From contig CBDBFU010000027.1 in assembly GCA_965205025.1 (NCBI GenBank), positions 1 through 64,000 on the forward strand: a stretch of 64,000 nucleotides of DNA, given 5' to 3'. Positions 40,161 through 64,000 of the stretch are shown here, in pieces. A program made the translations under genes and the position numbers. Below the pieces are notes generated by a model. The model searched no databases. It worked only from the letters and a program-made list of their open reading frames with translations, and had not been told where the DNA came from. Position 1 is the stretch's first letter. The number at the start of each line of letters is the position of its first letter. Origin of the DNA: Candidatus Poribacteria bacterium. GTDB taxonomy: Bacteria; Poribacteria; WGA-4E; WGA-3G.

Positions 40161-40166
40161 ATAATT

Positions 40167-40423: not shown

Positions 40424-43400
40424 CTACTTCAGGATCAACATTTTACGGGTAGCAGAAAACTCGTTTGCAGTGAATACGTAGAAATACACACCACTTGCCA
40501 CTTGCTCACCGATAGCATTGCGTCCATCCCAATAGGCTGCACGGCTCCGGTCTGTGTAGTAGCCCTCGGATTGATGTCCAAGTTTCAAGGTGCGTACCAC
40601 GTTTCCTGTTGTGTTGAAAATCGTAATCTGTACATTGGAATCCGTTGCTAACTGATACGGTATCCATGTTTCCGGATTAAACGGATTGGGATAGTTCGCA
40701 AGCAAACGTGTTTTTTCTGGTGATACGACTTCTAACAGACTCTGTAGATATGCCAGCGTATGTTGTGCTGTGAGCGAGTCGTTGTTGGAAGCAATCAACA
40801 GATCAATTTGCTTCTGAACTTCCTCACGTGATACCTTTGGAAGTTTCGCATCTGCGATTGGTGCAGCGTTGGTATCATCACGGTTATCAAACACAAGGAG
40901 CAGATCAAGGAAATTCACACGACCATCACCGTTGACATCAAGGCGTGCATTATCCGGATTCGTCTCTCCGAGTGCATCTGCTACTAATGCAGCATCTGTG
41001 TTATCAACCACGCCATCCTTATTGACATCGTATTTAGAGAAAGTTCCCGGTGGACGTGTCGGTGTTGTGCCGGCTGGCACAGAGATATCTCCGAGTGAAA
41101 CAAGGTCTGCGACGACAGCCTTGGCAGACTTACCGTTGATGTTGCTCTGCATGATTTTCCCACGGATGTTTGTCCAATACAGCTTTTTACCAGCTACATC
41201 AACGGAAATACCGTAGGGGGCAGCGCTTAATGAAATGAGCTCTTGAACATTACTGCCATCAAGATTAGCACTGTGGATTTTCCCTGCTGAACCGCTGGTT
41301 TCCTCTGTCCAGAACACTTTGCCAGCCCCAACAGCGATACTCCCCAATGTGTTATAACCTCTGGCGATTTGCCTTTCCCCTGATCCATCCACATTTGCCA
41401 AATGCACAGTTCCGCGCTCCGTTATCCAGAATATCTTGCCGGAACCAGTGTCAATCGCAACATCTTTGGGGGTGGTCAGACCGATAATCAGGTTCGCTTC
41501 ATATTGTGAACCGTCTATGTTGATGGCTTGTATCTTCCCGCGTTCGGTTGTAACGTAAATCTTACCGTTGACGGTATCGACAGTAATACCCGCAGGAACG
41601 GTCGAGAGATTCCGAATCAGCTGAATGTTTCCACCATTTAGGTTTGCGCTTCGGATTCTACCACTACTACTGGATGATCTTTCAACCCAGAAGAGTTTGT
41701 TGTTTGTAGCAACAAGACTCACAACATTTTGTACACTGGGAGCAACGGCTTCCACACTGCTGCCAACAAGTCGGTGTATTGTGCCGCTGTCCGTGTTAAT
41801 CCAATATGTATCTGCACGCTGTGATGCTGGCAGACGGATATCGGGTTCTGGGGGTGCTGGGTCTTCCGCTGTGGCGGTAAATGTGACACGATCAGAAACA
41901 CCTGAGACGCTTGCACGGACAGTGTTCCGTCCGGGATCATCCCCGAGGGTGAGGTCTGTTTGTGCACGTCCTCTTGAATTTGTGGTGACCGATGTTGACG
42001 AAAGGCTACCGCCTCCTGCTGTTACGCTAAATGTCACGGTAACACCTGAAACAACATCGTCATCTTCGTCAAGTACTTCAACAACAAGCGGGATTGTTAA
42101 GTTCTGTTCCCGGGTCACCGCGTTGGTTATTACCTGAAACGATCTCAATAGAATCGGCTAAATCACCGACTGTAATGGTAAAGCGAACAGATGAAAGTCC
42201 TGGAACTCTTGCATCTATAAAGTGTGTACCTGCAGCACGTGGTCGGAATTCTGCTTCGGCTTCACCGTTCCGATCGGTTGTTGCACTGCGCGTAACTGTG
42301 CCACTACCTCTTAAACTGAACGTGACGGTTACACCTTGCAGATCGTTACCATCTTCATCTGTGACGTGGACGATGAGGGGTTGGTCAAGATAACGGTTCG
42401 GTGTTCCGCGCTGGTTATTCCCTGAAACGATTACGATATCGCCTGGTACAAGTGCACCTGTAGCGTCAAAGAACACATCTGTCACAGTAGTGATGCCGAC
42501 GCTTGCGCGAACCCTGTTATCTTCGTCATCATCACCTAAGACAAGGTATGCACGCACTTCACCGTTTGTATCACTGTCGACTGTTAAGGTATTACTACCA
42601 CTTGTAGCACTTCCTGAAGTTGAAAGTTCACCATCGCCATCTACGATTGTAAACGTCACCTGTATACCTTGTACAGTAGTCGCAGCATTGGTATCCCGAA
42701 CGACTTTGAGGACAAATGGATCGTCAAGTACTTCGCCGCGATTTCCTTCTTGGTTGTCACCGGAAACGCTATCGCTCCGCGTCTTTCAATAGCCGAATAC
42801 CGAATACCGTAACCGTTGCAGTACCAGTATTCACACCTGTGGTAGACGTCACGGTAGCGGTGATGGTATATTGTCCAGGTGTAGTCGGTAGTCTGAACGT
42901 ATTTGGTGTAGTTGCTGTGCCAGTGACATCTGAGGTTAAGATATACGTACCGACATTCGTTCGATCACTGGTTCTGACCACGTCAAGTATGACACGTTGG
43001 TTCGCTGTCCTTTGTGGCAGCAGTATCCCTGATTGTGTGAGGTGCACCTGGTGCGCCAGAAGTACTCGTTTGTCCAGCGTTATTCGTTTGGATAATAGTG
43101 AGTGTACCTGTCGTTGGTGGTTGTTGCGTACCTGTAGACGATATTGTGAAAGTTACATAGTTTCTTCCACTGACTGTAACATTTGAATCTACAACCACTG
43201 CAGTTACCGTCTGTGTTGTAGGACTTGAAAGAATTCTATATGAATAGGAAGCAATACCGTTACTATCCGTTCTATCTGATCCAATGCGTACATTGTTGTT
43301 ATTGCGGAACTCGACATTAACATTGCGAACAGCTCTCTGGGAACTATCCACAACACGTGCCGACAATGTAACAGAACTGTTAGCAGATCCCGATAAAGAA

Positions 43401-46954: not shown

Positions 46955-49900
46955 TTATTGTGAAGCTTTTAGCTCACTCCACGTCGTTGTAAGTCTGTTC
47001 TTCGCTGAGATGAGGCCTTTCAACTTGGTTATAGCAAGTGCTTGGCGTTCACCGGCGAAGGATACATCTTCAATCTGGTAGTAGTACACAACACCTGGTT
47101 TGGCGGTCTGATCAACCCATTTATAGGTGTTACGTTCACCTGTTGTACCAGCACCTTCGATAAGCTCAGCGTTGACCTGTTTGTACTCACCGTTCCGAGT
47201 ATCACTACGTAGGATATTAAATCCAGCGTTGTCAAGTTCGGATTCGGTTGTCCAACGGACAGTCACTTTACCATCTTCAAGTGTTGGACGGAAGTGTGAT
47301 AATTCAACAGGTAGCACCATACCCGGACGGTTTCCAGGTGTACCGTAATCATCTTCAACACCAAACCAAGTAGACTTGATAGTGATTTTGAATTCCCGTT
47401 CAGTATTCACAGCAGGAATCCAACTATACTTCGCATCAATCTCACCTGGCGTTTTGACTGTCTTGTCACCGGTACCCATGATTGGCTGAACATTACTTTC
47501 TGCTGTGTTCACACCAGCGCGTGCAACGCCTGGTTCGCCGCCAAGACCATCAGCATCATCATAGATACGTATGATAGAAGTACGGTTACCGTCAGCAGCT
47601 ACGCCTGCGGGGAACTCCCATTCAGCATCATCACTGGTTCGGGCATCACCGTCAAGGTTACCAACCATGTCTGCTACATCGCCAGCATTGTCAACAAGTG
47701 CGATATTGAATGCTTTCGGATTGAAGAACATATAACGTGTGTTTGCACCGAATTTATTCGCGCCACCATAATCTCTGAAGACATTGAAGACACGATTGTC
47801 ATTAAACACATCGCCACCAGTTGCAGAGTCACTATTTGCCTGTCTGGCATTACCCGCAACAATCAGAACTGTCTGTTGTGGGAGAATAGTTTTCACTCTA
47901 CCTTTATCTTTGAAACTAAGAGACAGTAGACTATCCATCGGATTGCCATCAGCATCAAGCATTTCAAAGACCAGTTTCCAGCCTTCGCCGAGATCAACAG
48001 CGTTTGTCGGTGAACTGTTGTAAAGCTCAATCCACTGTGGTAATATCGGATTTTCGGGGTTAGGACCGGTGGAATACATGATCTCACTGATGGTCACTGA
48101 AGCATCCGCAGCTTTGGTCTTAACGATACCAGAATTTACAACACTGTTACCGTCGTATCCCGGTGTGCCGTTGTGATAACTGACACGTGCTCTGGCTGTG
48201 CGCCTATAACCGATACCGGTATAAATTGCATCACGGAAAGCGTAGTGTCCAACACCTTCATCTTTGTGTGTGACACCTGTACCTGCACGGTTACCGGGTG
48301 TTCCACCATCAGCATCATTTTTCGCATAAGTAGAAACGTGTTGACGGAAACGAACTCTGTTTACCTCAAGACGATTATGACGTCTGTGATTCAGGTCACC
48401 ATGCCCATAATGTGGTCTCATGTCACCGTTGAAGTTCCACAATGGCCAGAGGGTCGTACTATTGAGACCTGATGGCGTTGATGCTGGATAGTTGGATTTA
48501 TCCAATCCTGTATGGGACCCGGCAATATCCATGATTTTGTCAATATCATGTTCACCAACATCAGCAACACCCTCACCGTCGTTACCACCTGTATTAGACC
48601 TATTACCGTTATATTTGTCATGTCTACGCAGGATCAGTATATAATCGCCACCATTAGGCAGACCACCATTTTCAAAAGTTATCACTTTTTGTCTCGGCGG
48701 TTTACGATTACTGTTATCTCCTTCAACAAGACCCAAACCATCTGCCTGATCACTTGCATGTGCAATATCAACGTTCAGACCGACAGCGATCGGGTGATCA
48801 TCGTCATATCGCGGATCCGTAGCAAGTAATAGAAGAACTTCTCCAGGTTCAATCTGTGCATTATCGTCATTCGGAAATTGAACCAATGGGAGGTCAGTTC
48901 CAACAGCAGTTACCATTGAAATCATCCAGTTCCGTAAATTGACCTTGCTACTACCGACGTTCTTGAGTTCAATCCATTCATACTCGGCATTAGCATTGTC
49001 ACGGTTAGCAACTTCATTGATAATAACAGTAGGTTCACTTCTGAAGATGGTCTTACCGTTACCATCCTTCTGTCCCGTATCTACCCTTGCAACCATTGTT
49101 GTACGTTCACGTGTGCTCGCTCTTGAAAGATTAATGCTATGTGGACGACCCCGGTGAACCTATATAATGATAAAGCGCATTATCGGTATCGCTTCTTGTT
49201 GTTGATGCAAGATACTCTCTATCAGATTCATGCCAATGACCCGCTGATGTACCATTTACATAACCGCGGTTTTTATCGCCAACATAACTTCTGTGCATAG
49301 AGATAAAGTTCACACCTGTATAACTATTACCGTTCTGCCCCTTACTATTATTGTCCGTGCTGTCATCTTCCTCCCGAACTGCCCACGCTGCAGAACCAGG
49401 ACTACCGTTATAGGCATTACCAATTCTATCTTTTACACCTTCGTTATGGGTAACAGCAGAATCTAAACCAGTTCTGGCATACAGGAAGATTTCAACAGCT
49501 TTTCCTGTATCATTACTAAGTTCAATCCACTGTTCAGCAGCTTCTTCGTCGTTAGTGGCACCACGCATGGATAGATCAGATGCCCACATCACTTCAGAAA
49601 TACGGACAGTTTCTCTTTGGTTCTCGCCACCATACGGTACCTGATTAGCGAGGTTTGATTGCCCCGGTGCTTCTTTTAAGTTCAGTGTGCCACCAAACCC
49701 TTGATTAGTACCGGAAGGTTTAAGCCTAAAGAGCACTTCTAAATCAGGCATATTACACCAAACAACTGTTTCAATATTTGGAGCAGGCGTCGGGGGTTGT
49801 TGGTTAACTGGGAGTCTCGGTTGATCTGAAAGATAATCATAAGTCATTCCTGCTGTTTTGGTGACAACCATAATTGTGTTGACGGGAATATGGAATATGG

Positions 49901-51866
49901 GACCAACATTAAATGGCATCTTTTTCTCTGCGTTCCCATTCCCCGCGTCATCGTGCACTACATTCGCCTTTACCACGACTTCCACGGTCGTCTCACCGAT
50001 GTTTGGGATAAGCGTGAAGGTTGCAGTTTTTGGATTCGCGCTCGCATTCCATTTGAAACTACCTGCCTTTATGCTGCCTCTATTCACATCAACTTCATTT
50101 CTAGCAATTGCTGCGTTGCTTGCCAGAGCTACATTGTCCATCGGTGTAATAGTGATCATTGCACCATCAAGTGAATCAACATCACCAGCTTTATTAGGCG
50201 CTACAGGCTCTGGACAAAGGTCGGTATATTGAACAAGATTGCGTGCCGCAATTGTAACAGTCGGAGCATCACCTTCTGGGTTATATACACCTTCCGCACC
50301 GGGTGTGCGATTACCTGCCAGGTCTTGTGCAGCATTAGCTCTCACTTCAACCCTGACTGCTGTATTCGCTGCTCTGGGACGGACATATAACGTGTAACTC
50401 TCTGCAGAATCTCCGTGTGCGGTGGTATCCTTCGTAAGATCGCCATCGGCTAACGGATACGCATCACCAGTATCAATATCAATATCATTGATCGTAAGTG
50501 CTGGAATTTCTGCGGTAAGGTCAGTACGAGTAGAATAAAGTTTTTCGTTAGAAAGAATTCTGAACATCAACAAACCTTTTTCGTTACGATCAGTCGTAGC
50601 TGGATCATCTACAGCGGTGGGTGCTCCAGGCGGTACAACTGTCAATACCGGTGAATCGTTATCTATAACATGAACCGTCACCGTTTCAGATTTTGCGTCC
50701 GATGTCATACCGTTGTTGTTTGTGATCGCTCCTGCTTCAACTGTTAATTTCACATCTCCAGCAGCAGCAGGCGTAACTGTTATTGTCGTTACCATACCAG
50801 CTGTAGCGAAGTTTTTAATGGTTCCGCCTTCAACTGAAACCTCATTGAAGGACAGAACTAAATCCGCACCGGTACCAGCAACAGTATCACTAACAGTTAC
50901 AGTAAACGTGACATCTGTAGTTGCCAAGTCAGAGGCTGCGATCGGACCCGTTGACGGAGCAGGATCGTTCTTTGCAATGGCTACTGTTGGTTTTGTGGTT
51001 ACAGGTGCATCTGGTAAAAAAGGAACGAGTGTAAAGATATCCGGCGTCCCCGTGCACTATTATCAGCATTTCGACTTGATGGAAGGTTGTTCCAACGTGC
51101 AAGTGGATCTACTGCTCGAAAATCGGGCAACGCTTGTGCAGAACCACCTTCTACGACTACTTCAAACAGAATGTTTTTCCCGTCAATAGCGGGTTCCGTA
51201 GAAGCATCGTCTCCAGCTGCCTCTGCAGCCACTGGCAGTGCCCCGTTAGCAAGCGTAAATGTTACATCAAACATCCTTTTAGAATTATTTGCTGTAGCAG
51301 TATCATTGTCCGTATCAACAGGAGCAAATGCAACACTACTTATAGCAGTCGTGAGACTTCCAAAACCACCGCCAGTAGCAGCACCGTAATAAAGCAGCTC
51401 ATTGGTTCCTTCAACACCGATTTTGACGGTGAGTAGATCGCCCAAGGGTTCCGCCATCAGATGTAAATAAACCATCAACAGTAGTGGGTGCCTCGTAAAG
51501 CACGTCTTCACTAAATGTAATTCTAAAGGTAGCAGCAGTTACTGCTGGATAAACAGCAGAATCAGGATCCATTAGGCGTGTGGTTGCGACCCTAGCCAGT
51601 ACATACGTTGTACCACCAAATGTTATGGAGGTAGCTGGTTCAGCATCAGCACCGGTAGCTCCAACAGTAACCGTCGGATGGTCACCTAAGACGTGATCTG
51701 CTGTGGGTGCATTTACCAAGTTACCGTCTGCATCAGTATCAGTGTGTGAGTTATCATCTGCATTTTCATGTGCCATCACAGATGTTCCAACAAACACACC
51801 CCCAAGTGCAAGCAGTAAAATTAAAGTTGTTATACAATATGTCAATTTATTTGACAATAACATCAT
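46955..51866 (-). CDS. Large (~1630 aa) secreted lamin-tail-domain/Ig-like surface protein, left copy; split by about 3 frameshifts
   Basis: Starts MMLLSNKLTYCITT like 56868..61673; VRISEVMWA, VIINEVAN..EWIELKN, ISEIMY..QWIELYN LTD motifs; ends LPVELSHF...LTTTWSELKASQ; four ORFs collinear with the intact paralogue. Confidence 0.85.
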
Positions 51867-52001
51867 ATACTCCTTATAAAGTTGTTGAATTCAAGTTAAA
51901 GATTCAGGGAAAATTAAATCTTCTTAACCTAATCTTCTAAACTAAATTAAACAGACAGGGATAACCTGTTTGTCTGTCTTTTGATTGATTTCGCTATTTT
52001 G

Positions 52002-52031
52002 AATTAGACAAAAGGGGATTTTTGTCTAATT
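52002..52031. other. Left recombination site: 12-bp perfect arms around a 6-bp asymmetric core
   Basis: AATTAGACAAAA-GGGGAT-TTTTGTCTAATT. Confidence 0.8.
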
Positions 52032-52177
52032 GCGTCAATTCACGGTAGTCAATCATCTTCACATTGGATTGTCGAAGCTAAACTTTTCTTAGGTCTGTTG
52101 CTTCGTTCCAATCCACAATATCCTTAAACTTATGTTGCAGTCGGTGTTTAGAACCGTTATCCGCAAACTTGTCAGTA

Positions 52178-52206
52178 ATTATAGGTTATTAATAATATAA
52201 TGTCAA
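52178..52206 (-). promoter_or_regulatory. Consensus sigma70 promoter P1 inside the putative invertible segment, pointing at the left operon
   Basis: TTGACA-TTATATTATTAATAACC(17)-TATAAT on the minus strand. Confidence 0.85.
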
Positions 52207-52434
52207 ATGTTTTTTCTATTGTTTATGTATTAAACATTAGAACCGGGGCTTCAATCTGTTTAAAATTCTGTTTTTCAATGTTGTGTGTATGCTTTTCTGT
52301 ACCCGTTCTATACACCGTTTCGGCTGTACCGTTTTTGAAGTTCCCCTATGAACAGATTTTCATTTTAACATTATTAAAAAATTTAATCAACAATTTTTTT
52401 GCGTTTTATTACTTTATACGCACAATTGTGGATT

Positions 52435-52463
52435 ATTATACACTATTATACGTTTTATGTCAA
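52435..52463 (-). promoter_or_regulatory. Consensus sigma70 promoter P2, tandem with P1
   Basis: TTGACA-TAAAACGTATAATAGTG(17)-TATAAT on the minus strand. Confidence 0.8.
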
Positions 52464-52689
52464 GCAATAATTACAAAAAAACATACACCTCTGTTTAAAT
52501 AGAGTGTTTTACATTTATGACGGTTTGTTAGGTTTGTATCCTAACATTCCCGTATTATACATTATATATATACGTTATAAGTCAAATAATGGATACAAAA
52601 AAATTGAAAAAAGTTTCTGAACGATGGATTACGCGGATTTCACGGAGAAGAGGAAAGCCCGGGGCTTATTGTTTTGCGTTTTTACGTTT

Positions 52690-53790
52690 TCTACACACCT
52701 TTCGCCCCTCTGGGGCTTACGGTATTGGTGATAACGACTTCTATAAACATTCCGTCCCTACGGGACTCAAGAACATGGATCAAGCATTTTTGCTATAGAC
52801 ATTTCGTTCCTACGGAACTCAGGAATATGGAGCAAATATCTTTGCTATAAACATTTCGTAGACAGGTCTATTGAAGACACCCATGTGTTTTTAGAACGGA
52901 TATAGTCCCGTAGGGACGGAATGTCTATAGAAAACGTGTGTATCCCCATAAGTGAGTCCCGTAGGGACGGAATGTCTATATCAACATATAGGTGGAGTTT
53001 TCAAGAGACGTATGATCTTCTAAGAATCGCTCTCTAACACTGGATGAAAAATATATCTTTCATCATAATCAACATTAAATCGTTTTAACAACTCAATATA
53101 TTCTTCTCTAAACGACTTCTGCTTATGGTGCTTTTCTTGATTAAGGATATAATTTGATACACTCTCTATTTGTGAATGTGCGTAAGTAAAGGCAGAATAA
53201 CCTTCTTGCCATTTGAATTGACCGGCAACCCATTGCTTCTTGTTTATGAATCGTGATGAATTTGCTTTAATATCTTTTACCAATTCCGATAGTGCCATTG
53301 AAGGATCTATACCAACAAAAATGTGTATATGGTCTGGCATAGAATTGATTTGGATCACTTTATGTTTATTATTGGTGATTATACCTGTAATGAATTTGTG
53401 AAGTTCTTCTTTATGTTCCTTCGGAATTAGGTTTTGACGATGTTCAACTGCAAAAACAATATGTATATATAATTGTGTATATGTGTTTGCCATAGTATTA
53501 CTCCTTACGGTTTGTATTTTATCATTTTGTCCTTACCCAATCAACGAGAAATGTGCTATAGACATTCCGTCCCTACGGGACTCAAGAATATGGAGCAAAT
53601 ATCTTTGCTATAGACATTCCGTTCCTACGGAACTCAGGAATATGGAGCAAACATCTTTTCTATAAACATTTCGTAGATAGGTTTATTGAATACTCCCATG
53701 TGTTTTTAGAATGGATACAGTCCCGTAGGGACGGAATGTCTATATCAACATATAGGTGGAGTTTTCAAGACACGTATGATCTTCTATAAA
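52690..53790. repeat. REP-like palindromes flanking tnpA on both sides
   Basis: CTATA(A/G)ACATT(C/T)CGT(C/T)CCTACGG(G/A)ACTC at 52741, 52793, 53556, 53608 and inverted at ~52904, ~52955, ~53719. Confidence 0.85.
53020..53493 (-). mobile_element. tnpA: IS200/IS605-family Y1 (HUH) transposase, probably REP-associated (RAYT)
   Basis: YTQLYIHIVF, MPDHIHI (HUH), KANSSRFIN, FKWQEGY, NYILNQEKHH; embedded in REP arrays; no tnpB. Confidence 0.88.
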
Positions 53791-53958
53791 CATTTCGTAG
53801 ATAGGTCTATTCACCCAGGTGTCTTTACATCCGCTGAAGTATATGTTTCTACAGGTTGAGTATTAGGAAAGTTGACTCTAACTATTCAATTTCAATGGTA
53901 TGAAATAGTATAGCCAAAGAAGGTATTTACAGATTAATAGCAGAAAAAGATAATAGTA

Positions 53959-54210
53959 TTAGGAGAGATTGACAAGATGATGCCCACGTTCAAGTTTAAC
54001 CTGATGTAAATCAAATTCAACAAGTCGAATTACACCCGGTTCATCGTCATATACTACACCGATAGATGCAATTGTTTCTTCGGTTCCTAAAGGATCTTTA
54101 AATTCAACTATATCACGGACTTTTCCAGGATTCCCGTCAACAACAATTCTATCACCAACATTTAAGTCTTTTACATTCTGGAAAGGAATATACTTTATAG
54201 TATCTGTCAT
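53959..54210 (-). CDS. Small hypothetical protein (possibly an SH3/KOW-like beta-barrel)
   Basis: 83-aa ORF with AAGGA RBS; DLNVGDRIVVDG..GKV. Confidence 0.55.
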   Translation of the reverse strand: MTDTIKYIPFQNVKDLNVGDRIVVDGNPGKVRDIVEFKDPLGTEETIASIGVVYDDEPGVIRLVEFDLHQVKLERGHHLVNLS

Positions 54211-54515
54211 TTTAGATTCCTTATAATATTATATTTGAATATATGAAATAGGATTGTCAGGATGTAAATTACAAATTGAATCTGTATTGCCAAATTACTT
54301 TACTGAACTAACAAGTAGTTTTATTTTGAAATACAATAGACGGTAAAGAAATAATCAACACATTCTGATTATAAACTATAAAGTTCAAAATGTCAAATTA
54401 CAATTCATTCTTATACCATTTCCAATTGATAGATTTACATTATGATTTAAGTAAAACAGGGACAATCATATACAGATCTATGAGTCCTGGGCTAATTTCT
54501 TTTTTATTTGCTTTT

Positions 54516-55092
54516 CTACGCACCTTTCGCCCCTCTGGGCTTATTGTTTTGCGTTTTTACGTTTTCTACACACCTTTCGCCCCTCTGGGGCTTATACATT
54601 ATAATAGTCACGTTTTCTACACACCTTTCGCCCCTCAAATCAACGGTATGAATGCGCGTATGGCATTCCCCGGGGCTTAGGGTATTGGTGATAACGACTT
54701 CTATAAACATTCCGTCCCTACGGGACTCAAGAATGTGTAGCACGCATTTTTGCTATAGACATTTCGTCCCGATGGGACTCAAGAATGTGTAGCACGCATT
54801 TTTGCTATAAACATTCCGTCCCTACGGGACTCAAGAATGTGTAGCACGCATTTTTGCTATAGACATTCCGTCCCGATGGGACTCAAGAATGTGTAGCACG
54901 CATTTTTGCTATAGACATTTCGTTCCTGCGGAACTCAGGAATATGGAACAAATATCTTTGCTATAAACATTTCGTAGATAGGTTTATTGAAGACACCCAT
55001 GTGTTTTTAGAATGGATATAGTCCCGTAGGGACGGAATGTCTATAGAAAACGTGTGTATTCCATAATTGAGTCCCGTAGGGACGGAATGTTT
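54516..55092. repeat. REP array including five 52-bp tandem units (54701-54960)
   Basis: Units start at 54701, 54753, 54805, 54857 and 54909; three CACCTTTCGCCCCTC(T)GGG(G)C hairpins upstream; two inverted copies at ~55020 and ~55069. Confidence 0.9.
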
Positions 55093-55298
55093 ATTGAAAT
55101 CCGCGAATCAAAAAACTGATAGCCAACAGCTGATAGCCAAACAAAAACAACAAGGAAACACAGACATCAAATCGGCTTCCTTGTTGTTTTTGCTTGTTAA
55201 GTATATATATATTAATGTATTGTGTAGAGTGAATACGTTTCCGAACACCTACCAATCACCAATACAGATTATTCGTATAAAATTAACAGGTTTCAGTT

Positions 55299-56045
55299 TC
55301 ACGCTACTGCAGATGTATTTATATTTTGGATTCCTTTCTTATTGACCATCTCCTCAGGATCATACCCACGCCGAACCAGTTCTCCAAATAAAATATCATC
55401 CGCCACCTCTCCAACAGATGTTGAAGTATAGGTTTTCGGTTTTTCTGCCATTACAGAGATGGCTTCGCTTGCTTGCCTCAGTTTTGTATAGTTTACGCCA
55501 AGATATCTTTGTGTAGTCTTAACGTCGTTATGCCCGAGCATCTCACGTACCGTATATATATCGTTAGTTTGCTCATAAAGACGTTGTGCGTAACTTTTAC
55601 GCAAAGAATGTGTAGCAAGCTTCCCGTTGAGTCCGGCTTTTTTAAAGGCAACCTTTAATATAAGGTGTGCGGATTTCCGTGTCATCGGTTGTTTTCCCTG
55701 TCCGTTCCTTGAAGGGAAAACCGGTCGTGACATATTAAGTCGCTTCCCATACTGTTCTTGATGCCACTTGATAATTTCTTGAACCGCTATAGCTCCATCA
55801 GAATTCAGTGGCACTGCGCGTGATGTTTCTTTCCCCTTAACAATAGATTTGTCAAAAAGCAGATCCGTTACAGGCGCATTGTTCTGATAGACATCTGTGA
55901 GTCGAAGCCCCAACAGTTCAGAAATCCGTCCACCGGTAGAAACACCGAGTATAAACAGACATTTATTGCGTATGGCGAAAGTGCCTTCAAAGCATGCCAT
56001 AACCCGGCGTATTTCATCGTTCATGAGAGGTCTTGTACCTTTCAT
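55299..56045 (-). CDS. Tyrosine recombinase, catalytic-domain-only (FimB/FimE-like), candidate invertase
   Basis: RN..LF.LG.STGGRISELL (R), VKGK (K), HSLRKS (HxxR), LGH, TTQRY (Y); AGGAGG RBS before ATG 56045; no N-terminal core- or arm-binding domain. Confidence 0.9.
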   Translation of the reverse strand: MKGTRPLMNDEIRRVMACFEGTFAIRNKCLFILGVSTGGRISELLGLRLTDVYQNNAPVTDLLFDKSIVKGKETSRAVPLNSDGAIAVQEIIKWHQEQYGKRLNMSRPVFPSRNGQGKQPMTRKSAHLILKVAFKKAGLNGKLATHSLRKSYAQRLYEQTNDIYTVREMLGHNDVKTTQRYLGVNYTKLRQASEAISVMAEKPKTYTSTSVGEVADDILFGELVRRGYDPEEMVNKKGIQNINTSAVA

Positions 56046-56700
56046 GGACACCTCCTAAAATAGATTTTATGTATAAAATTTATGTATAAGTATGTGTAAA
56101 TATGTATAAAGCAGTATATGCCGTATATTATGGTTATACGCTTTAATATATAAGCGTGTTGCAAGATAATTTGGCAGTAGTAGACATATTAAACACTGTT
56201 CTAATCACGCTTTAACCCGTGTGTCCCAACGCTCATACCTCCTCTGTATGGGGCGCTTCGATTCCCATTAGCGTCAATTTAGGAAAAAAATTTTGTATCC
56301 CAGGCCGGTAGGTGCGGTTTCCCAACCGCACCGAATTTGTGCCAAATCTTTGATTGAAAGCCTTCGTGTATAATCCACTTCGGTGAATCAACGGTATGAA
56401 TGCCATAAGGCATTCCCCGGGAAACCGAAGCTACCATTATTAAAGGTGAACTAAATTGACGCCTATAATGAAGGACCTCCAATTCCCGACGCTTCCATCC
56501 TTCCACCTCCTCTGTAGGAGGGAATTCCGATTCCCGATTCTTCCGATATATGATTTTCAAATATATAGTTAATCATATTAAGACAATAAACTTTTTATTA
56601 AGTAATATATTATTTATATATGACTTAATACGAATACATTTATTAACAGATACAATGTTTATAGGTAATTATCAATTACTTTTTATGAAATCATTATTTG

Positions 56701-56730
56701 AATGTGACAAAAATCCCCTTTTGTCAGGTT
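56701..56730. other. Right recombination site, core inverted relative to the left site
   Basis: AATGTGACAAAA-ATCCCC-TTTTGTCAGGTT; the central 20 bp is the exact reverse complement of 52007-52026. Confidence 0.8.
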
Positions 56731-56867
56731 TAGACATGGTGGTCATAGATCAAAAAGACAAACAGGTTATCCCTGTCTGTTTAAATATTTAGTTTAGAAG
56801 ATTAGGTTAAGAAGATTTAATTTTCCCTGAATCTTTAACTTGAATTCAACAACTTTATAAGGAGTAT

Positions 56868-59800
56868 ATGATGTTATTGTCAAATAAATTGACATATTGT
56901 ATAACAACTTTTATTTTCCTGGTGGCGTTTGTAGCGGTGCCGGTGATGGCACACACGCCTGGTGACGGTCATGACGCTGCGCATGATGGTGATAATCCTG
57001 CAACTGCTGATGTAGTAGAAACAGATTTTGCAGAAGAAGTCAATCACACTCACACAGCCGCGCCAATGGTATCTGCTATTACAGCAGTTGACACAAAGGG
57101 TCTCCCCGCAGTGGGTGGTACATTAGTCAGCAATGTAGACGGAAGAGATATAGTGCTTGTGGATGATCTAACAGCAGCTGATGATGCACGCTTAGTTATT
57201 GCTCTTACTGATCATGATAATGATGCCACAACTGGCACTCCCCCAACTCCTGAGCAGCTCGCGGCGGGTGCTTTTCAATTGAAGATCACGTTTAATGAGG
57301 ATGTGTATCCCGTAGCTCAGGCTGGTACTACTGCTGGTGTAGCACCTGCCATTGCTGTTGATACTGGTGCTTTTACTGGTGTGACATTCCTCGCAGCAAC
57401 TAAAAATGGAGTGGATGTTTCTACCTCATTCACCCTTGGTACACTTACACGCGTACAAACTGCAGGGGCTGATACTACTGAAGCTACAGATGATGAATTT
57501 TCTTTAAGAGAATTTCTGGTACCGGTTACGGTGGGTGCAGGTTTAACGGAGCTTCAGCTCCCTGTATCGCTTTGGGTAACCGTGGGTGCTAATCAAGTAT
57601 ATACCTTATCGAAAATTGTCAATGGTGAAACAGTACAAGGTCGTGGAAACACAGAATATAGCACTCCTGGATCAGATCCGTTCTCCGTGGATGGTTATGT
57701 GGCACCAACAATAACAACACCAGATGATACTGCAGGTCCGGATATTGTTACATTCACTTCTTCCGCAGCTGATTCTGATGGTAATGTAACTTTTACGCTT
57801 ACCTTTAGTGAGGCTCTTGGAACAAGTGGTCTTATTCCAGCGGACCTTACGATTACTGGTGGAACGTTAGTAACAGACGGTATTACACCGGCAGGTTCAG
57901 CAACGGTTTATATGATAAAGGTTACCCCAGACGATGATCCGACAGAGGCTGAAGTTACAGTAAGGCTTAATGATGGGTCTGTATCAGATAAAGTCGATGG
58001 AGCTCGTTATGTGGAACCTATGGACGAAGCCGATGTGAAGATAGGTAGATATGATACCGTGAACCCAACGGTGAATGCAGTTGCTACAGGTGTTGTTGGA
58101 ACAGGTACAGGAACTGATGGCAACGGTATAGCAGTTGGCATGGTGAAACTTAGCGTCACTTTCAGTGAAGAACTTGGTAGTGACATGGCTGGTTTCGAAA
58201 ATGATGATATTGATAGAACGAATAGTAATGTGTTGTTAACTAACACCGATCCTATGTTAGCTACAATGCCTGAAGGCAACAAAACTGTTTGGGAATTGAC
58301 GGTTACACCTGTGCCAGCAAATGCCGCACAAGTTGTGATTGTTATTAAAGCAGGTTCAGTCATGGACATGGCTACTAATCCGTTATTGCAGGATACGATT
58401 GTAACGTGGACACGTCCTGGGGCTGACACAGAGAGTGATAATCCGGTCGTTACGATTGCACTCGATGCTGGTATGACTTACATTGACTCTGTGAGTGGTG
58501 GTACAGTTACCGTTACAGCCTCTGATAGTGGTAGTGGACTTGCGACCGGTGCGGAAATTATTGAAACTGAAGTCACTATTGAAAATGGAAGCATCATGGC
58601 AGGTAGTTTCACGAAAGGTGCAACTGCAACGTTCACTCTTATTCCAAATGTCGGTGCCATATCGGTAAAAGTGACGGTCGCCGCAGGTGCTGTGGCTGAC
58701 GCTGATGGTAATACCAATGTCCTTCAAACGGACATGACTAAGCCGAACGCGAACCCGATGACATTCAAAGTCGGTCCGACATTCACGATTCCCGCAAATA
58801 CAATATTGGTTGTCACCAAAACAGAAGGGTTGACACATCAATATCTTTCAGATCAACCGAGATTGCCGGTTACCTCAAATCCACCTGTGCCTGCTCCAGA
58901 TATTCAAACGGCTGTTTGGGATAATATGCCGGATTTAGAAGTGCTCTTTAGTCTATCTGGTGGCGGTAACGGCGGTACAATTAACTTAACGGAAGCAATG
59001 GGTCAGGACGAACTTTCACAGACACGTGATGGAGACAAACAACAAAGGAACTCTGTCCGTATATCTGAAGTGATGTGGGCATCTGATCTATCCATGCGTG
59101 GTGCACAAGACGACGCAGAAGCCGCTGAACAGTGGATTGAAATTAGTAATGATACAGGCGAAGAGGTTGAAATCTTCTTGTTCGCCAGAACAGGACGAGA
59201 TTCTGCTATCAACGTTGATGATGTAGAAGATAGAGTCGGTAACGCATATAATGGTAGTCCTGGTTCTGCACCGTGGGCAGTTAAGGGTCAGAACGGGAAT
59301 AGTTATACTGGTGTAGACTTTATCTCAATGCACAGAAGTTACGTGACCGGTGATAATCGCGGTTATGTGAATGGAACATCAAGTGGTCATTGGCATAATT
59401 CGGATAGAGAGTATCTCACACTGGCGACAAGAAACCCGAATGATGGTGCGCTTTATAATTATATCGGTTCACCGGGTCGTCCACATACTTTCAATCTAAC
59501 ACTACCGAATACCCGTGAACGTACTACAATGGTTGCGCGAGTAAAAGAGAAAAATGATGACGGCTCGGACAAAAAAGATGGAAACGGTAAGCAGATATAC
59601 AAAAGTGTGCCTACTGTTATCATCAATGAAGTTGCGAACCGTGACAATGCTAATGCCGAGTATGAATGGATTGAACTCAAGAACGTTAGCAGTAGCAATG
59701 TTAATTTACGGAACTGGATGATTTCAATGGTAACAGAAGTCGGAACAGACCGTCCATTAGTTCAGTTTCCGAATAACAATAATGCCCAGATTGGACCTGG

Positions 59801-61673
59801 AGAAGTTCTCCTGCTACTTGCTACGGATCCGAGACATGACGATGATCACCCGATCGCTGTCGGTCTGAACGTTGATATTCCTCATGCAAGTGATCAAGTA
59901 GATGGTCTGGGTCTCGTTGAAGGAGATAACAGTAACCGTAAACCACCAAGACAAAAAGTGGTAACTTTCGAAAATGGTGGTCTGCCTGATAATGGCAATT
60001 ATATATTGATTCTCCGTAGACATGACAACCATGAAGGTCATAGATCTGGTGTTGATGGCGGTAAAGGTGTTGCTGAAACCGGTGAAGCAGACATTGATAA
60101 AATCATGGATATTGCCGGGCACCATGAAGGATTGAGTAAATCCAACTATCCAGCGTCAACCCCAGAAGGTCTCAATAGTACAACCCTCTGGCCCTTGTGG
60201 AACTTCAACGGTGATATGCGTCCGCATCGTGGACATGGCGACTGGAATCACAGACGTCATAATCGTATTGAGGCAAACAAGGTTCGTTATCGTCAACACG
60301 TTTCTACTTATGCGAAAAACGATGGTGATGGTGGAACACCCGGTAACCGTGCAGGTACAGGTACAAATCACAAAGATGAAAATGTTGGAAACTACGCTTT
60401 CCGTGATGCAGATTATACCGGCCTCGGTTATAAACGTACTGCCAGAATAGCTGGCTACAATCACGGTACACCCGGATACGATGGTAATAGTGTTGGGAAT
60501 ACCGGTATTGTCAAAGCTACGGCTGCAGATGCTATGGTAACCATCAGTGAGGTCATGTATTCCACTGGTCCTGATGCTGATAATCCGATATTACCGCAGT
60601 GGATTGAGCTTTACAATAGTTCACCTACCGTCGCGGTTAATCTGAGAGGTTGGAAACTCCGCTTTGAAATGCTTGATGCTGATGGCAATCCGATGGATAG
60701 CCTCATGTACCTCGAATTCAATAAGAGTCGGGTGAAAACTATCCTTCCACAACAGACAGTTCTGATTGTTGCGGGGAATGCCAGACAAGCAAATAGTGAT
60801 TCTGCGACAGGTGGCGATGTGTTTAATGACAATCGTGTCTTCAATGTCTTCAGAGATTATGGTGGCGCGAATAAGTTCGGCGCGAACACACGTTATATGT
60901 TCTTCGATCAGAAAGTATTTTACATCGGAGTCATTGACAAAGATGGCAAGGTCGTAGACGAAGTCGGTAACCTTGACGGTGATTCCAGAACAAGTGATAC
61001 GAATAACTGGGAATTCCCATCTGGTATCGCTGCTGACGATAACCGTACATCTATCATCCGTGTCTATGATGATGCTGATGGTCTTGGCGGTGAATCTGGT
61101 AAGGCACGCACTGGAAAGAACACAGCAGAAAGTAATGTCATGCCTATTTTCGGAAGCGGTGACAAGAAAATGACAGATGATGACGGCATTGCTGATAAGT
61201 GGAGTTGGATACCCGCTGTGAATACCGAACGGGAATTCAAAATCACTATCAAGTCTACTTGGTACGGTGACGAAGACGATTACGGTACACCTGGAAACCG
61301 TCCGGGTATGGTGCTACCTGTTGAGTTATCACACTTCCGTCCCACACTTGAAGATGGCGAAGTTACGATCCGTTGGACAACCGAATCCGAACTTGACAAC
61401 GCCGGATTTAATATCCTTCGTAGTGAAACTCGGGACGGTGAGTATACACAGATCAACGCTGAGCTTATCGAAGGTGCTGGTACCACAGGTGAACGTAACA
61501 CCTATAAATGGGTTGATCAGACTGCCAAACCAGGTGTTGTGTACTACTACCAAATTGAAGATGTATCTTTTGCTGGTGAACGCCAAGCACTTGCTATAAC
61601 CAAGTTGAAAGGCTTAATCTCAGCAGAGAACAAACTTACAACGACGTGGAGTGAGCTAAAAGCTTCACAATAA
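56868..61673 (+). CDS. Large (1601 aa) secreted lamin-tail-domain/Ig-like surface protein, right copy (intact)
   Basis: AAGGAG RBS, signal peptide, Big_13-like TFSE repeats, three LTD-like modules, FN3-like LPVELSHF domain, KLTTTWSELKASQ tail. Confidence 0.9.
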   Translation: MMLLSNKLTYCITTFIFLVAFVAVPVMAHTPGDGHDAAHDGDNPATADVVETDFAEEVNHTHTAAPMVSAITAVDTKGLPAVGGTLVSNVDGRDIVLVDDLTAADDARLVIALTDHDNDATTGTPPTPEQLAAGAFQLKITFNEDVYPVAQAGTTAGVAPAIAVDTGAFTGVTFLAATKNGVDVSTSFTLGTLTRVQTAGADTTEATDDEFSLREFLVPVTVGAGLTELQLPVSLWVTVGANQVYTLSKIVNGETVQGRGNTEYSTPGSDPFSVDGYVAPTITTPDDTAGPDIVTFTSSAADSDGNVTFTLTFSEALGTSGLIPADLTITGGTLVTDGITPAGSATVYMIKVTPDDDPTEAEVTVRLNDGSVSDKVDGARYVEPMDEADVKIGRYDTVNPTVNAVATGVVGTGTGTDGNGIAVGMVKLSVTFSEELGSDMAGFENDDIDRTNSNVLLTNTDPMLATMPEGNKTVWELTVTPVPANAAQVVIVIKAGSVMDMATNPLLQDTIVTWTRPGADTESDNPVVTIALDAGMTYIDSVSGGTVTVTASDSGSGLATGAEIIETEVTIENGSIMAGSFTKGATATFTLIPNVGAISVKVTVAAGAVADADGNTNVLQTDMTKPNANPMTFKVGPTFTIPANTILVVTKTEGLTHQYLSDQPRLPVTSNPPVPAPDIQTAVWDNMPDLEVLFSLSGGGNGGTINLTEAMGQDELSQTRDGDKQQRNSVRISEVMWASDLSMRGAQDDAEAAEQWIEISNDTGEEVEIFLFARTGRDSAINVDDVEDRVGNAYNGSPGSAPWAVKGQNGNSYTGVDFISMHRSYVTGDNRGYVNGTSSGHWHNSDREYLTLATRNPNDGALYNYIGSPGRPHTFNLTLPNTRERTTMVARVKEKNDDGSDKKDGNGKQIYKSVPTVIINEVANRDNANAEYEWIELKNVSSSNVNLRNWMISMVTEVGTDRPLVQFPNNNNAQIGPGEVLLLLATDPRHDDDHPIAVGLNVDIPHASDQVDGLGLVEGDNSNRKPPRQKVVTFENGGLPDNGNYILILRRHDNHEGHRSGVDGGKGVAETGEADIDKIMDIAGHHEGLSKSNYPASTPEGLNSTTLWPLWNFNGDMRPHRGHGDWNHRRHNRIEANKVRYRQHVSTYAKNDGDGGTPGNRAGTGTNHKDENVGNYAFRDADYTGLGYKRTARIAGYNHGTPGYDGNSVGNTGIVKATAADAMVTISEVMYSTGPDADNPILPQWIELYNSSPTVAVNLRGWKLRFEMLDADGNPMDSLMYLEFNKSRVKTILPQQTVLIVAGNARQANSDSATGGDVFNDNRVFNVFRDYGGANKFGANTRYMFFDQKVFYIGVIDKDGKVVDEVGNLDGDSRTSDTNNWEFPSGIAADDNRTSIIRVYDDADGLGGESGKARTGKNTAESNVMPIFGSGDKKMTDDDGIADKWSWIPAVNTEREFKITIKSTWYGDEDDYGTPGNRPGMVLPVELSHFRPTLEDGEVTIRWTTESELDNAGFNILRSETRDGEYTQINAELIEGAGTTGERNTYKWVDQTAKPGVVYYYQIEDVSFAGERQALAITKLKGLISAENKLTTTWSELKASQ

Positions 61674-62354: not shown

Positions 62355-64000
62355 ATGAATAACACATTTTTCACGCGAAAGCTTGGACTCGGTATCCTCA
62401 TAGCGCTTGTATTCGCGTTTGGTGTGCAGAGCGTAGCAGACGCACAGTTGCGAGTTAGCAGCAGCAGAGGTGATTTACAAGTCAAACCTTTGGTTGCGAA
62501 CCAAACATTTGAGTTCTCGTTTTATATAAGCGGTATTCCAGGAAGCAGACCTGATACTTCTCCTGGGACTGCCGATACTGAGCGGGAAGAGATAACGATA
62601 ACTCCAACTGGCGGGGCTTTCACTGAAGTAAGAATGGGTAGCACACGCTACACATCAGCAACCAAAACTCTTACAGGGGCTTTCACGCTACAAGAATGGC
62701 ATGCCGATAATACCAATGGGATTGCTACTACCGCGGATGATACTGATCTTGGTGCTACTGAAGGTGACCTTGCTACCGGCACTGTAACTGTGACGGTTGA
62801 ACCTACAGCTGTCGGACCTATTACAGTTACAGTTGCTGCAGCAGGCGATTCAACCGGCGATTTTGAAACACTAACATTCACGGTTTATGCTGTACAAATT
62901 CCTACGGACGTTCAAGGTCTCAGGTTTGCAGCAAGCACTCCGACCGTAAATCCAACAACTAAAACAACCTATCCACCATTCGATCCGAATGTTCCCTTAT
63001 ATGATGAGGAAGTTATTGTCACGGTATTTGATGCTTCTGACGCAGCTGGAGGCAATCGGGCGTATGCACTTGTTGATTTTGAAGTTTTTGAGGGACCCGG
63101 ATTTGTTTATCAGGATCTGAACGATGACTCAGAACCTGACCCTGGTGAAAGCAGAAATTCAAAAACTACAAGAACATTAACTCGTCTGGGTACAGATAAC
63201 GATATGGCAAGGGTAAGACTGCGGACGAATGGCGGCACTAACAAAGTTCGCGCAACAATTACTAACACACAACCACCCCAAACCTACGAGATTACTTATC
63301 TCTATCAAGGAGACGGGACAACGACGACACCACCGCCACAACCAGGAGGTCCACAACTTACTGTTAACGCACCTGCCACCGGCACTGTCGGGCAACCGAT
63401 TACTGTTACAGCGACTGTCTCTGATAATCGCGCCCGTCGAGTGGTCGCTTTCTCAAGTAATAGAGGTGGCACTTTTTCACAAACTCCTATACTAACGGAG
63501 AGTAACGGTGTTGCAACAATACAGTTCACACCGAGTACTCCCGGGACAGTAACCATCACCGCACGCTCGACCGGCTATACAAACGGTACCGATACGGTTC
63601 AGGTCTCGTCAGCCCTCCCTCGCCTCACAGTGCTTACACCGACACCACCCATCAGAGGAAATACGGGGCAAAGACTAAACATAGTTATTGGCACAGGAGC
63701 TCCTGCGGGTCTAACAGTCACACTGACAGGCACCAATTTTCAACCTGCCATTGCCCAAGGTGTCACACTTTCCAACGGTTCCGTTACGATCCCCGTTACG
63801 CTACCGAATAATCCTGGGGGTCATCTACTCACTGCCAGTGCTCCTGGATATCAAAATACGAGTATCTCAGTGATTGTTGGAGGGGCAACGACTGGTGGCC
63901 CAGTGCAGTTAACGATTCCCAGCGGACAAACACAAACCGTGTCTATCGGGAGTAATGCTCCGTTGCGGGTACGTGTAACAAGTACAGTGTCGAATGTAAG
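62355..64000 (+). CDS. Ig-like Thr-rich secreted surface protein, counterpart of 40424..46378 (runs off the window end)
   Basis: AGGAG RBS; MNNTFFTRKLGLGILIALVFAFGVQSVADAQ matches the left gene's signal peptide; appears open to the window edge, which would explain its absence from the ORF track. Confidence 0.85.
   Translation, partial: MNNTFFTRKLGLGILIALVFAFGVQSVADAQLRVSSSRGDLQVKPLVANQTFEFSFYISGIPGSRPDTSPGTADTEREEITITPTGGAFTEVRMGSTRYTSATKTLTGAFTLQEWHADNTNGIATTADDTDLGATEGDLATGTVTVTVEPTAVGPITVTVAAAGDSTGDFETLTFTVYAVQIPTDVQGLRFAASTPTVNPTTKTTYPPFDPNVPLYDEEVIVTVFDASDAAGGNRAYALVDFEVFEGPGFVYQDLNDDSEPDPGESRNSKTTRTLTRLGTDNDMARVRLRTNGGTNKVRATITNTQPPQTYEITYLYQGDGTTTTPPPQPGGPQLTVNAPATGTVGQPITVTATVSDNRARRVVAFSSNRGGTFSQTPILTESNGVATIQFTPSTPGTVTITARSTGYTNGTDTVQVSSALPRLTVLTPTPPIRGNTGQRLNIVIGTGAPAGLTVTLTGTNFQPAIAQGVTLSNGSVTIPVTLPNNPGGHLLTASAPGYQNTSISVIVGGATTGGPVQLTIPSGQTQTVSIGSNAPLRVRVTSTVSNV

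What the first reader, a model, noticed from the sequence alone, without database searches (positions are those of the whole stretch)
52002..56730. Invertible 4.7-kb promoter segment with its own recombinase, switching between two surface-protein operons
Seen in sequence: (i) two sites with palindromic arms around a 6-bp asymmetric core, AATTAGACAAAA-GGGGAT-TTTTGTCTAATT (52002-52031) and AATGTGACAAAA-ATCCCC-TTTTGTCAGGTT (56701-56730), with cores in inverted orientation and half-site consensus AA-N3-GACAAAA; (ii) an intact catalytic-domain-only tyrosine recombinase between them; (iii) two perfect TTGACA-17-TATAAT promoters just inside the left site firing outward, and no consensus promoter that I could see inside the right site; (iv) each site lies ~135-140 bp upstream of a paralogous gene with a near-identical leader. 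Established: tyrosine recombinases invert DNA between sites with inverted 6-8 bp cores (FimB/FimE, Cre/lox logic), and promoter inversion selects S-layer genes in Lactobacillus acidophilus slpA/slpB and Campylobacter fetus sap. Inference: a binary surface/antigenic switch, currently left-ON and right-OFF, in a probable uncultured sponge-associated lineage where I know of no such described system.
Basis: partly seen in the sequence, partly recalled or inferred. Interest (0 to 1): 0.95.

Follow-up and report, generated by a model that had tools for sequence, protein, structure and literature searches.

The report
Invertible promoter switch in sponge symbiont
A 4.7-kb stretch of a Poribacteria (sponge symbiont) genome carries strong promoters and its own recombinase between two mirror-image sites, and most likely flips to choose which of several variable secreted proteins is made, a known kind of switch not yet described in this phylum.

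Summary
Two 30-bp sites (12-bp arms, 6-bp spacer, spacers inverted) lie at 52002-52031 and 56701-56730. Each is about 136 nt upstream of a paralogous LTD-domain gene. Between them lie a catalytic-domain-only tyrosine recombinase and two perfect sigma-70 promoters at the left end only, firing outward.

New evidence supports inversion at the sites:
- Congeneric Candidatus Poribacteria MAGs have the same module with the same conserved promoters at one end.
- One MAG (G025) has the inner and outer halves of both junctions reciprocally swapped at the spacer, compared with G018 and G000.
- The spacer differs between species but matches between partner sites within each genome.

- It is not strictly binary. 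Five LTD cassettes in this genome carry the spacer and leader.
- The left gene is broken into four frames in this assembly. Otherwise identical short-read contigs lack those three C-run letters, giving one 1635-aa frame.
- Switching inside one population was not shown. Only contigs were available, and they show the reference orientation.

Closest analogue: Mycoplasma vpma/Xer1. Verdict: a new member of a known kind, confidence about 0.68.

The parts
46955..51866 (-). Left LTD-domain paralog (signal peptide, variable N-terminal part, conserved C-terminal part). It is split into four frames in this assembly.
   Evidence: ORFs; Pfam LTD and Big_12. Contigs of runs X6 and X7, otherwise identical to the window, leave out 1, 2 and 1 letters at 49149, 51048 and 51441, all in C runs. 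Without those letters the gene is one frame of 1635 aa.
51867..52001 (-). Left leader (5' UTR) with a conserved hairpin and a Shine-Dalgarno sequence; outer patch of type A
   Evidence: Alignment; five-copy alignment
52002..52031 (.). Left recombination site. A perfect palindrome of two 12-bp arms around the spacer GGGGAT.
52178..52206 (-). Promoter P1, TTGACA-17-TATAAT, firing out through the left site
   Evidence: invariant in G000, G018 and G025
52435..52463 (-). Promoter P2, TTGACA-17-TATAAT, same direction as P1
   Evidence: invariant in G000, G018 and G025
53020..53493 (-). IS200-like / REP-associated Y1 transposase, flanked by arrays of REP-like palindromes (about 52640-53000, 53550-53800, 54500-55110). 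A passenger of the segment.
   Evidence: Pfam PF01797; NCBIfam; repeats. A homologue sits in the G018 segment.
53959..54210 (-). 83-aa ORF of no known family, behind a third perfect promoter (54396-54368)
   Evidence: It is the only copy in the genome.
55299..56051 (-). Tyrosine recombinase with the catalytic domain only, transcribed inward from the right end
   Evidence: Pfam; NCBIfam Xer-like hits, all below cut-off; alignment to XerD with the catalytic motifs kept
56701..56730 (.). Right recombination site, spacer ATCCCC, inverted relative to the left site
56731..56867 (+). Right leader; outer patch of type B followed by the conserved hairpin
56868..61673 (+). Right LTD-domain paralog, intact, 1601 aa
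   Evidence: Residues 30-450 give no blastp hit to the left copy; the last 900 aa are 79% identical to it.
62355..64000 (+). Downstream gene (it runs on to contig position 66911; Big_1, dockerin and FlgD_ig / Por_Secre_tail domains). It may be co-transcribed with the right paralog.
   Evidence: No terminator-like site in the 680-nt gap.

Best explanation
This is a site-specific DNA inversion switch. The 248-250-aa tyrosine recombinase encoded in the segment binds the two 12-bp arms of each 30-bp site. It exchanges strands in the 6-bp spacer and so flips the 4.7-kb segment.

Only one end of the segment carries strong outward promoters (P1 and P2). In the orientation assembled here they read through the left site and leader into the left LTD paralog. 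After inversion they would read into the right paralog. The paralogs share the leader, the signal peptide and the C-terminal two thirds, but their N-terminal 450 residues are unrelated. The switch would therefore change the exposed part of a secreted or surface protein.

Shown here: the anatomy, its conservation in related species, and one natural reciprocal exchange at the spacer between species.

Inferred: that the recombinase is the catalyst, that the promoters are the main drivers of expression, that the unselected copy is silent, and that switching goes on at a useful rate today.
For: 1. Anatomy of the sites. The 12-6-12 sites have identical spacers in inverted orientation. The recombinase keeps the XerD-aligned catalytic motifs.

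2. Promoters at one end only. Of the 4 genomes where I found a pair of sites (G000, G018, G025, G005), 4 of 4 have 2-3 matches of at least 11 of 12 at one end facing out. None of the 4 has such a match facing out at the other end. P1 and P2 are invariant in the 3-species alignment. The genome holds 46 perfect matches against 3.2 expected from base composition, and 3 of them are in this segment.

3. Junction swap. The inner halves fall into a promoter-end kind and a recombinase-end kind. The outer patches fall into type A (TAATTCA...) and type B (A[GT]GTT[TC]AGACAT...). G000 and G018 join promoter end to A and recombinase end to B. G025 joins promoter end to B and recombinase end to A. The two G025 sites share only 13 identical letters, too few for an assembler to jump between them or for ordinary homologous exchange.

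4. Spacer co-variation. ATCCCC in 5 of 5 G000 copies, TTCCCC in 2 of 2 copies in G018 and in G025, and TACCCC in 3 of 3 copies in G005.

5. Extent of the site. The cassette on contig C7 stops resembling the left junction exactly at the end of the inner arm, and it is itself a near-perfect palindrome. The 30-bp unit is therefore what is conserved.

6. Other cassettes lack promoters. No sense-strand match of 10 of 12 or better lies upstream of the sites of the C7, 67-kb and 81-kb cassettes.

7. Both flanking genes are probably intact.
Against: - No flipped junction was seen within one population. Only Logan contigs could be laid. X6 contigs bridge the left site (51918-52691) and the right site (56420-56816) in the reference orientation. 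None of the 15 joints listed out of 40 lies at the sites. Contigs drop rare variants, so this does not test the idea.
- Promoters are consensus matches only. No RNA data were available.
- Both G025 leaders hold a 9-of-12 promoter-like element, TTTAGA-18-TAAAAT. The G000 leaders have a similar stretch. 'Off' copies may therefore have basal expression.
- Leaders evolve in concert within a genome. That could produce the spacer co-variation without recombinase selection, and patchwise gene conversion could mimic the junction swap.
- Of the 6 same-genus genomes with a close recombinase orthologue, only 3 showed a pair of sites in the DNA I fetched. G016 showed one site on a 2.4-kb contig. G028 (3.7-kb contig) and G002 (20 kb fetched) showed none with my motifs.
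- The inversion of the segment in G018 relative to flanking synteny carries the outer patches with it, so it is not diagnostic of exchange at the sites.
Confidence: 0.68

Rival explanations
1. Fossil switch. The sites and recombinase inverted the segment in the past, which explains the differences between species. Today the system is inactive or switches so rarely that it does not regulate anything, and the paralogs are expressed by other means.
For: Only the reference orientation was seen in contigs of X6. Weak promoter-like elements lie in the leaders. Recombinase orthologues occur without detectable paired sites in G002 and G028.
Against: The recombinase frame and catalytic motifs are intact. 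The left site is a perfect palindrome. P1 and P2 are invariant across three species while the surrounding DNA is 70-83% identical. Partner-site spacers are kept identical in every genome examined.
Confidence: 0.14
2. Inversion by general homologous recombination between the long inverted leaders or gene bodies, as recalled for Campylobacter fetus sap. On this view the recombinase is not the catalyst.
For: About 165 nt of near-identical inverted leader, and about 3 kb of 81% identical inverted coding sequence, flank the segment. The whole unit, outer patches included, is inverted in G018 relative to flanking synteny. That fits exchange further out than the sites.
Against: The G025 swap places the exchange between the inner arm and the type A/B patch, within about 13-20 shared letters. 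Exchange in the long identical leader would have kept each patch with its end. A dedicated recombinase travels with the module in G000, G018 and G025, and sits beside it in G005.
Confidence: 0.09
3. The 30-bp palindromes are operators for a dimeric regulator and were duplicated with the leader of the gene family. The recombinase belongs to an unrelated mobile-element remnant.
For: The spacer plus outer arm is present in all five leaders, including two whose inner arm is degenerate. The palindrome also folds as an RNA hairpin in the leader.
Against: It does not explain the reciprocal junction swap. It does not explain strong promoters at one end only in 4 of 4 modules. It does not explain the linkage of the recombinase to LTD pairs in four species. 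The site lies about 140-170 nt downstream of P1, an unusual place for an operator.
Confidence: 0.06

Closest known systems
Mycoplasma agalactiae vpma locus with the Xer1 recombinase (also M. bovis vsp/Mbr and M. pulmonis vsa/HvsR)
   Same: Several paralogous surface-protein genes carry a conserved recombination site in the 5' untranslated region. There is a unique promoter and an adjacent lambda-integrase-family recombinase. Inversions place one gene behind the promoter, and disrupting xer1 locks the phase (PMC2268961, passages read).
   Different: Here the recombinase lies inside the invertible segment in three species, and the promoter module sits between a divergent gene pair. The genes encode 1400-1600-aa LTD/Ig-like proteins, not lipoproteins. 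The phylum is Poribacteria. Switching has not been shown.
E. coli fimS with FimB/FimE
   Same: A promoter on an invertible element, and short tyrosine recombinases that lack the N-terminal core-binding domain. Both points are recalled. The NCBIfam models named 'tyrosine-type DNA invertase' hit weakly.
   Different: From recall, fimS is 314 bp with 9-bp repeats, is an ON/OFF switch for one operon, and has its recombinases outside the element. The protein here scores 53.8 and 46.7 bits against cut-offs of 222 and 221, so it is not a member of that family.
Campylobacter fetus sap and Lactobacillus acidophilus slpA/slpB inversions
   Different: From recall, the C. fetus system depends on RecA and on long 5' homology, with no dedicated recombinase in the segment. 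Here the one mapped exchange lies in the spacer of a 12-6-12 site, and a recombinase travels with the module.
Bacteroides fragilis promoter inversions and outer-membrane-protein shufflons run by tyrosine recombinases
   Same: DNA inversion controls surface molecules (abstract start of PMC4747536 in the listing). The details of the recombinases are recalled.
   Different: Different promoter type, repeats and recombinase clade. No sequence relationship was tested here.

Membership tests
Tyrosine recombinase superfamily (PF00589) | Catalytic domain with the R-K-H-R-H/W-Y residues | tested here: met
   PF00589 at 100.1 bits against a cut-off of 27.1. The alignment to XerD keeps GGR, KGK, HSLR, GH and the Y of TTQRY. 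The identity of the catalytic positions in XerD is recalled.
XerC/XerD equivalogs | Score above the NCBIfam cut-off, and a two-domain protein with an N-terminal core-binding domain | tested here: not met
   96.2 and 92.4 bits against cut-offs of 329.6 and 335.15. Only profile positions 106-290 are matched. Eight residues precede the catalytic domain.
FimB/FimE-type DNA invertases (NF007371, NF007370) | Score above the NCBIfam cut-off | tested here: not met
   53.8 and 46.7 bits against cut-offs of 222 and 221.
Invertible promoter switch (inverton) | Inverted repeats bounding a segment that holds an outward promoter | tested here: met
   Sites. P1 and P2 score 12 of 12 and are conserved in 3 species. 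The promoters are consensus matches only.
Invertible promoter switch (inverton) | Both orientations present in one population | tested here: inconclusive
   Only contigs were available. The reference orientation is bridged in X6 and no joint at the sites was listed. Both junction combinations do exist between species: G025 against G018 and G000.
Single-promoter multi-cassette inversion systems (vpma/vsa type) | Several paralogs that each carry the recombination site in a conserved 5' region | tested here: met
   Five cassettes in G000 have the ATCCCC spacer, the outer arm and the leader. Three have both arms and two have degenerate inner arms.
Single-promoter multi-cassette inversion systems (vpma/vsa type) | A unique promoter, with the other cassettes silent | tested here: inconclusive
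   No sense-strand match of 10 of 12 or better lies upstream of the sites of the other cassettes. Weak leader elements exist, and there are no RNA data.
RecA-dependent sap-type inversion | Exchange anywhere in a long conserved 5' region, with no dedicated recombinase | tested here: not met
   The one mapped exchange lies between the inner arm and the A/B patch, and a recombinase is linked to the module. Dependence on RecA cannot be tested with these tools.

The most novel reading that the evidence does not exclude
The module may not be a two-way toggle. It may be the mobile promoter of a five-cassette shufflon. The sites share one spacer at 52.0 kb (-), 56.7 kb (+), 67.4 kb (+) and 81.7 kb (+) of the same contig, and at one place on another contig. 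Nested inversions of 4.7, 15 and 30 kb, and a much larger chromosomal one, could then bring any of five LTD proteins with unrelated N-terminal parts behind the same promoters. That would be programmed antigenic variation of the vpma kind in an uncultivated mutualist of sponges.
Probability: 0.25. Interest if true: 0.75.

Novelty: new member of a known kind. Interest (0 to 1): 0.6.

Why it matters
Poribacteria are widespread, uncultivated sponge symbionts. How such symbionts avoid being eaten by sponge cells, recognised by host immunity or killed by phages is an open question. A programmed switch of a large secreted or surface protein would show that antigenic or phase variation, known mainly from pathogens and gut commensals, also operates in a marine mutualist.

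It would also give a locus that can be scored directly in existing sponge metagenomes and metatranscriptomes, by orientation ratio per host, tissue or season. I found nothing in print on it. My searches were Poribacteria with 'phase variation' (1 unrelated paper), Poribacteria with invert and recombinase (5 papers, unrelated by title and abstract start), inverton with sponge (2 papers held, 1 listed, unrelated), and Poribacteria with 'lamin tail' (0 papers).

Tried and rejected
1. Reads. Seven runs were listed and four were laid (X6, X7, X1, X2). All are Logan contigs, not raw reads. No opposite-strand joint at 52002-52031 or 56701-56730 appears among the 15 joints shown, and 25 more were not shown. 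This is no verdict on minority orientations.

2. X1 and X2 hold only small shares of the stretch, from relatives. One X1 contig ends inside the left site, at 52020. That cannot be told apart from a branch caused by the C7 paralog, so I dropped it.

3. The JGI metagenome contig scan with the recombinase gave 7 loci, the best at 47% identity over 56 residues. None was a relative of the module.

4. The inversion of the segment in G018 relative to collinear flanks looked at first like a natural flip. The outer A/B patches moved with it, and the flanking LTD genes are not orthologous. I therefore rejected it as evidence for exchange at the sites.

5. More distant recombinase homologues (52-58% identity; 7 loci from G034, G014, G012, G002 and G036). 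No convincing flanking inverted repeat of 22 nt or more was found, and no LTD gene lies nearby. I did not follow these further.

6. Rfam gave no family in the leaders or the segment. One 0.2 E-value match to a plant microRNA model falls in the REP array and is chance.

7. The leader hairpin as an intrinsic terminator. It is flagged in G000, but in G005 the stem is followed by no T run. I rejected it as a general terminator.

8. Pfam on the last 134 aa of the right paralog and on the 83-aa ORF, at E up to 5, found nothing.

Full report
WHAT IS THERE

The window is positions 1-64000 of contig C27 (134 kb) of a 5.66-Mb, 33-contig genome. Close relatives are titled Candidatus Poribacteria MAGs, and the runs holding related DNA include sponge metagenomes.

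Each has two 12-bp arms around a 6-bp spacer. The spacer is GGGGAT on the left and ATCCCC on the right, which is the same spacer inverted. The left site is a perfect palindrome apart from its spacer.

The sites are the innermost part of a longer inverted repeat (51813-52026 against 56706-56921, 90%). That repeat has three zones:
- a 20-nt identical core;
- about 28 nt that differ between the two sides, which I call patch A on the left and patch B on the right;
- about 165 nt of almost perfect identity, covering a hairpin, the ribosome-binding site and the first 22 or so codons.

THE FLANKING GENES

The right gene (56868-61673) encodes 1601 aa with a signal peptide, a Big_12 Ig-like domain and two LTD matches.

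The left gene is in four frames in this assembly. Contigs from runs X6 and X7 carry no other differences from the window. They leave out one letter at 49149 (X7 only; X6 has no cover there), two at 51048 and one at 51441 (both runs). All three places are runs of C. Without those letters the gene is a single frame of 1635 aa. I read the breaks as homopolymer errors of the assembly. These runs may be the window's own source, so they are not independent of it.

The two proteins share the signal peptide and 79% of their last 900 residues. Residues 30-450 give no blastp hit between them. Each gene is followed, after about 600 nt with no terminator-like site, by a Big_1 / dockerin / FlgD_ig gene. 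Whether these pairs are operons is untested.

THE SEGMENT

From left to right the segment contains the following:
- P1 and P2, both perfect TTGACA-17-TATAAT matches on the - strand, which fire out through the left site;
- arrays of REP-like palindromes around an IS200-like Y1 transposase;
- a third perfect promoter in front of an unexplained 83-aa ORF;
- the recombinase, which is transcribed inward from the right end.

The recombinase has the catalytic domain only. It aligns to XerD with the catalytic motifs kept. It scores far below the cut-offs of the XerC/D models and of the FimB/E-type invertase models.

The genome holds 46 perfect promoter matches against about 3 expected from composition, so this consensus is in use in this organism. 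Three of the 46 are in this 4.7 kb. The best outward-facing match at the right end is 9 of 12.

OTHER COPIES IN THE SAME GENOME

The leader plus site occurs five times:
- the left and right copies described above;
- a copy on contig C7 in front of a 1543-aa paralog, with both arms present and near-palindromic;
- two copies further along C27, near 67.4 and 81.7 kb, with the same spacer and outer arm but degenerate inner arms.

All five have the spacer ATCCCC. The C7 copy stops resembling the left junction exactly at the end of the inner arm. This marks the 30-bp unit as the conserved element. No sense-strand promoter match of 10 of 12 or better lies upstream of the sites of these three copies.

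RELATIVES

At E up to 1e-20 the recombinase has a match in 16 of 36 other genomes of the genus. It has none in 24 genomes of three other families of the order. At E up to 1e-90 it has a match in 6 of 39 genomes of the genus.

G018 has the whole module between two divergent, intact LTD genes of 1414 and 1413 aa. In G025 the module is a stand-alone 3.4-kb contig that ends in the leaders.

In G005, a closed genome, a divergent LTD pair flanks a 2.7-kb segment with 12-6-12 sites of spacer TACCCC. The recombinase lies outside the segment, after the right gene.

In all four genomes with a site pair, 2-3 promoter matches of at least 11 of 12 sit at one end facing out, and none sits at the other end. 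P1 and P2 are invariant in the three-species alignment. The recombinase end shows no conserved outward promoter.

G016 showed one site on a 2.4-kb contig. G028 and G002 showed none with my motifs.

EVIDENCE THAT EXCHANGE HAPPENS AT THE SITES

The inner halves of the junctions are recognisably of two kinds across species, a promoter-end kind and a recombinase-end kind. The outer patches are likewise of type A or type B.
- G000 and G018 join the promoter end to A and the recombinase end to B.
- G025 joins the promoter end to B and the recombinase end to A. I checked this by reading the four junctions directly.

That is a reciprocal exchange located between the inner arm and the patch, within the 13-20 letters the two sites share. 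Exchange in the long identical leader would have kept each patch with its own end. The shared stretch is also too short to be an assembly artefact.

The spacer differs between species (ATCCCC, TTCCCC, TACCCC) but is the same in all partner sites of each genome. The counts are 5 of 5, 2 of 2, 2 of 2 and 3 of 3. Strand exchange by a tyrosine recombinase requires matching spacers. Concerted evolution of the leaders could also give this pattern.

WHAT WAS NOT SHOWN

Only assembled contigs could be laid on the window. X6 contigs bridge both sites in the reference orientation, and no joint at the sites was among those listed. Switching within a population is therefore untested. No RNA data were available.

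The inversion of the module in G018 relative to collinear flanks includes the outer patches. The flanking LTD genes of the two species are not orthologous. I do not count that inversion as evidence for exchange at the sites.

MECHANISM AND COMPARISON

The best reading (about 0.68) is a recombinase-driven promoter inversion that selects which LTD paralog is transcribed. The assembled state has the left gene behind the promoters.

The closest described system is the Mycoplasma vpma/Xer1 type. It has several surface-protein genes with a recombination site in the 5' untranslated region, a unique promoter and an adjacent lambda-integrase-family recombinase whose loss locks the phase (PMC2268961, passages read).

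This locus differs in the position of the recombinase, which is inside the segment in three species and outside it in G005. It also differs in the divergent-pair layout, the kind of protein and the phylum. It works like fimS/FimB-FimE, but the protein is not a member of that family. It resembles C. fetus sap in layout (recalled), but the mapped exchange and the linked recombinase argue against a purely RecA-driven process.

VERDICT

It is a new member of a known kind of system, in a phylum where my four literature searches found nothing on it. Interest 0.6.

Noticed in passing
window 49149, 51048, 51441: Three extra letters or letter pairs in C runs break the left LTD gene in this assembly. 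Otherwise identical short-read contigs lack them. The same kind of error may affect other genes of this genome.
   Followed up: yes
window 40086-40242 and 40258-40286: Two tRNA genes on the - strand lie behind a perfect TTGACA-17-TATAAT promoter. The stretch is 97% identical to G018 and marks the left edge of the LTD region in both genomes.
   Followed up: partly
window 53020-53493; contig C27 72619-73089 and 86984-87454: The genome's three copies of the IS200-like/REP-associated Y1 transposase (97-100% identical) all lie on this contig. One is inside the segment and one follows each of the third and fourth LTD genes. The REP palindrome GTCCCTACGGGAC and its complement occur 179 times in the genome, and the REP arrays reach very high summed depth in all four runs laid.
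   Followed up: partly
window 53959-54210 (-), promoter 54368-54396: An 83-aa ORF with a perfect promoter. It has no Pfam or NCBIfam family, no second copy in the genome and no DNA match in the G018 or G025 segments.
   Followed up: partly
window 51951-51973 and 56758-56780; L031 about 1555-1575 and 4365-4385: A hairpin with the stem AAACAGG/CCTGTTT is kept in every LTD leader of G000, G018, G025 and G005, while its loop and its surroundings change. Its function is unknown. It is not followed by a T run in G005.
   Followed up: partly
L077 about 1491-1520 (G005:C1 near 1991710): A stand-alone near-palindromic 12-6-12 site with the TACCCC spacer, 66 kb from the G005 module, with no LTD leader behind it.
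   Followed up: no
window 40424-46378 (-): The gene after the left LTD paralog appears as separate ORFs of 1131, 193 and 574 aa, whereas the right-hand counterpart is one ORF of 1518 aa. This may be further assembly indels or a different gene content.
   Followed up: no
contig C27 about 67560-68226 (L005 5560-6226): The third LTD cassette has the leader and a start codon, but its long ORF begins only at 68226. The N-terminal part is out of frame in the assembly.
   Followed up: no
contig C27 about 67350-67423: The 60 nt upstream of the third cassette's site are 75% identical to the recombinase end of the segment, against 45-67% for other pairs of unlike junction kinds. This looks like a relic of an earlier junction or duplication.
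   Followed up: partly
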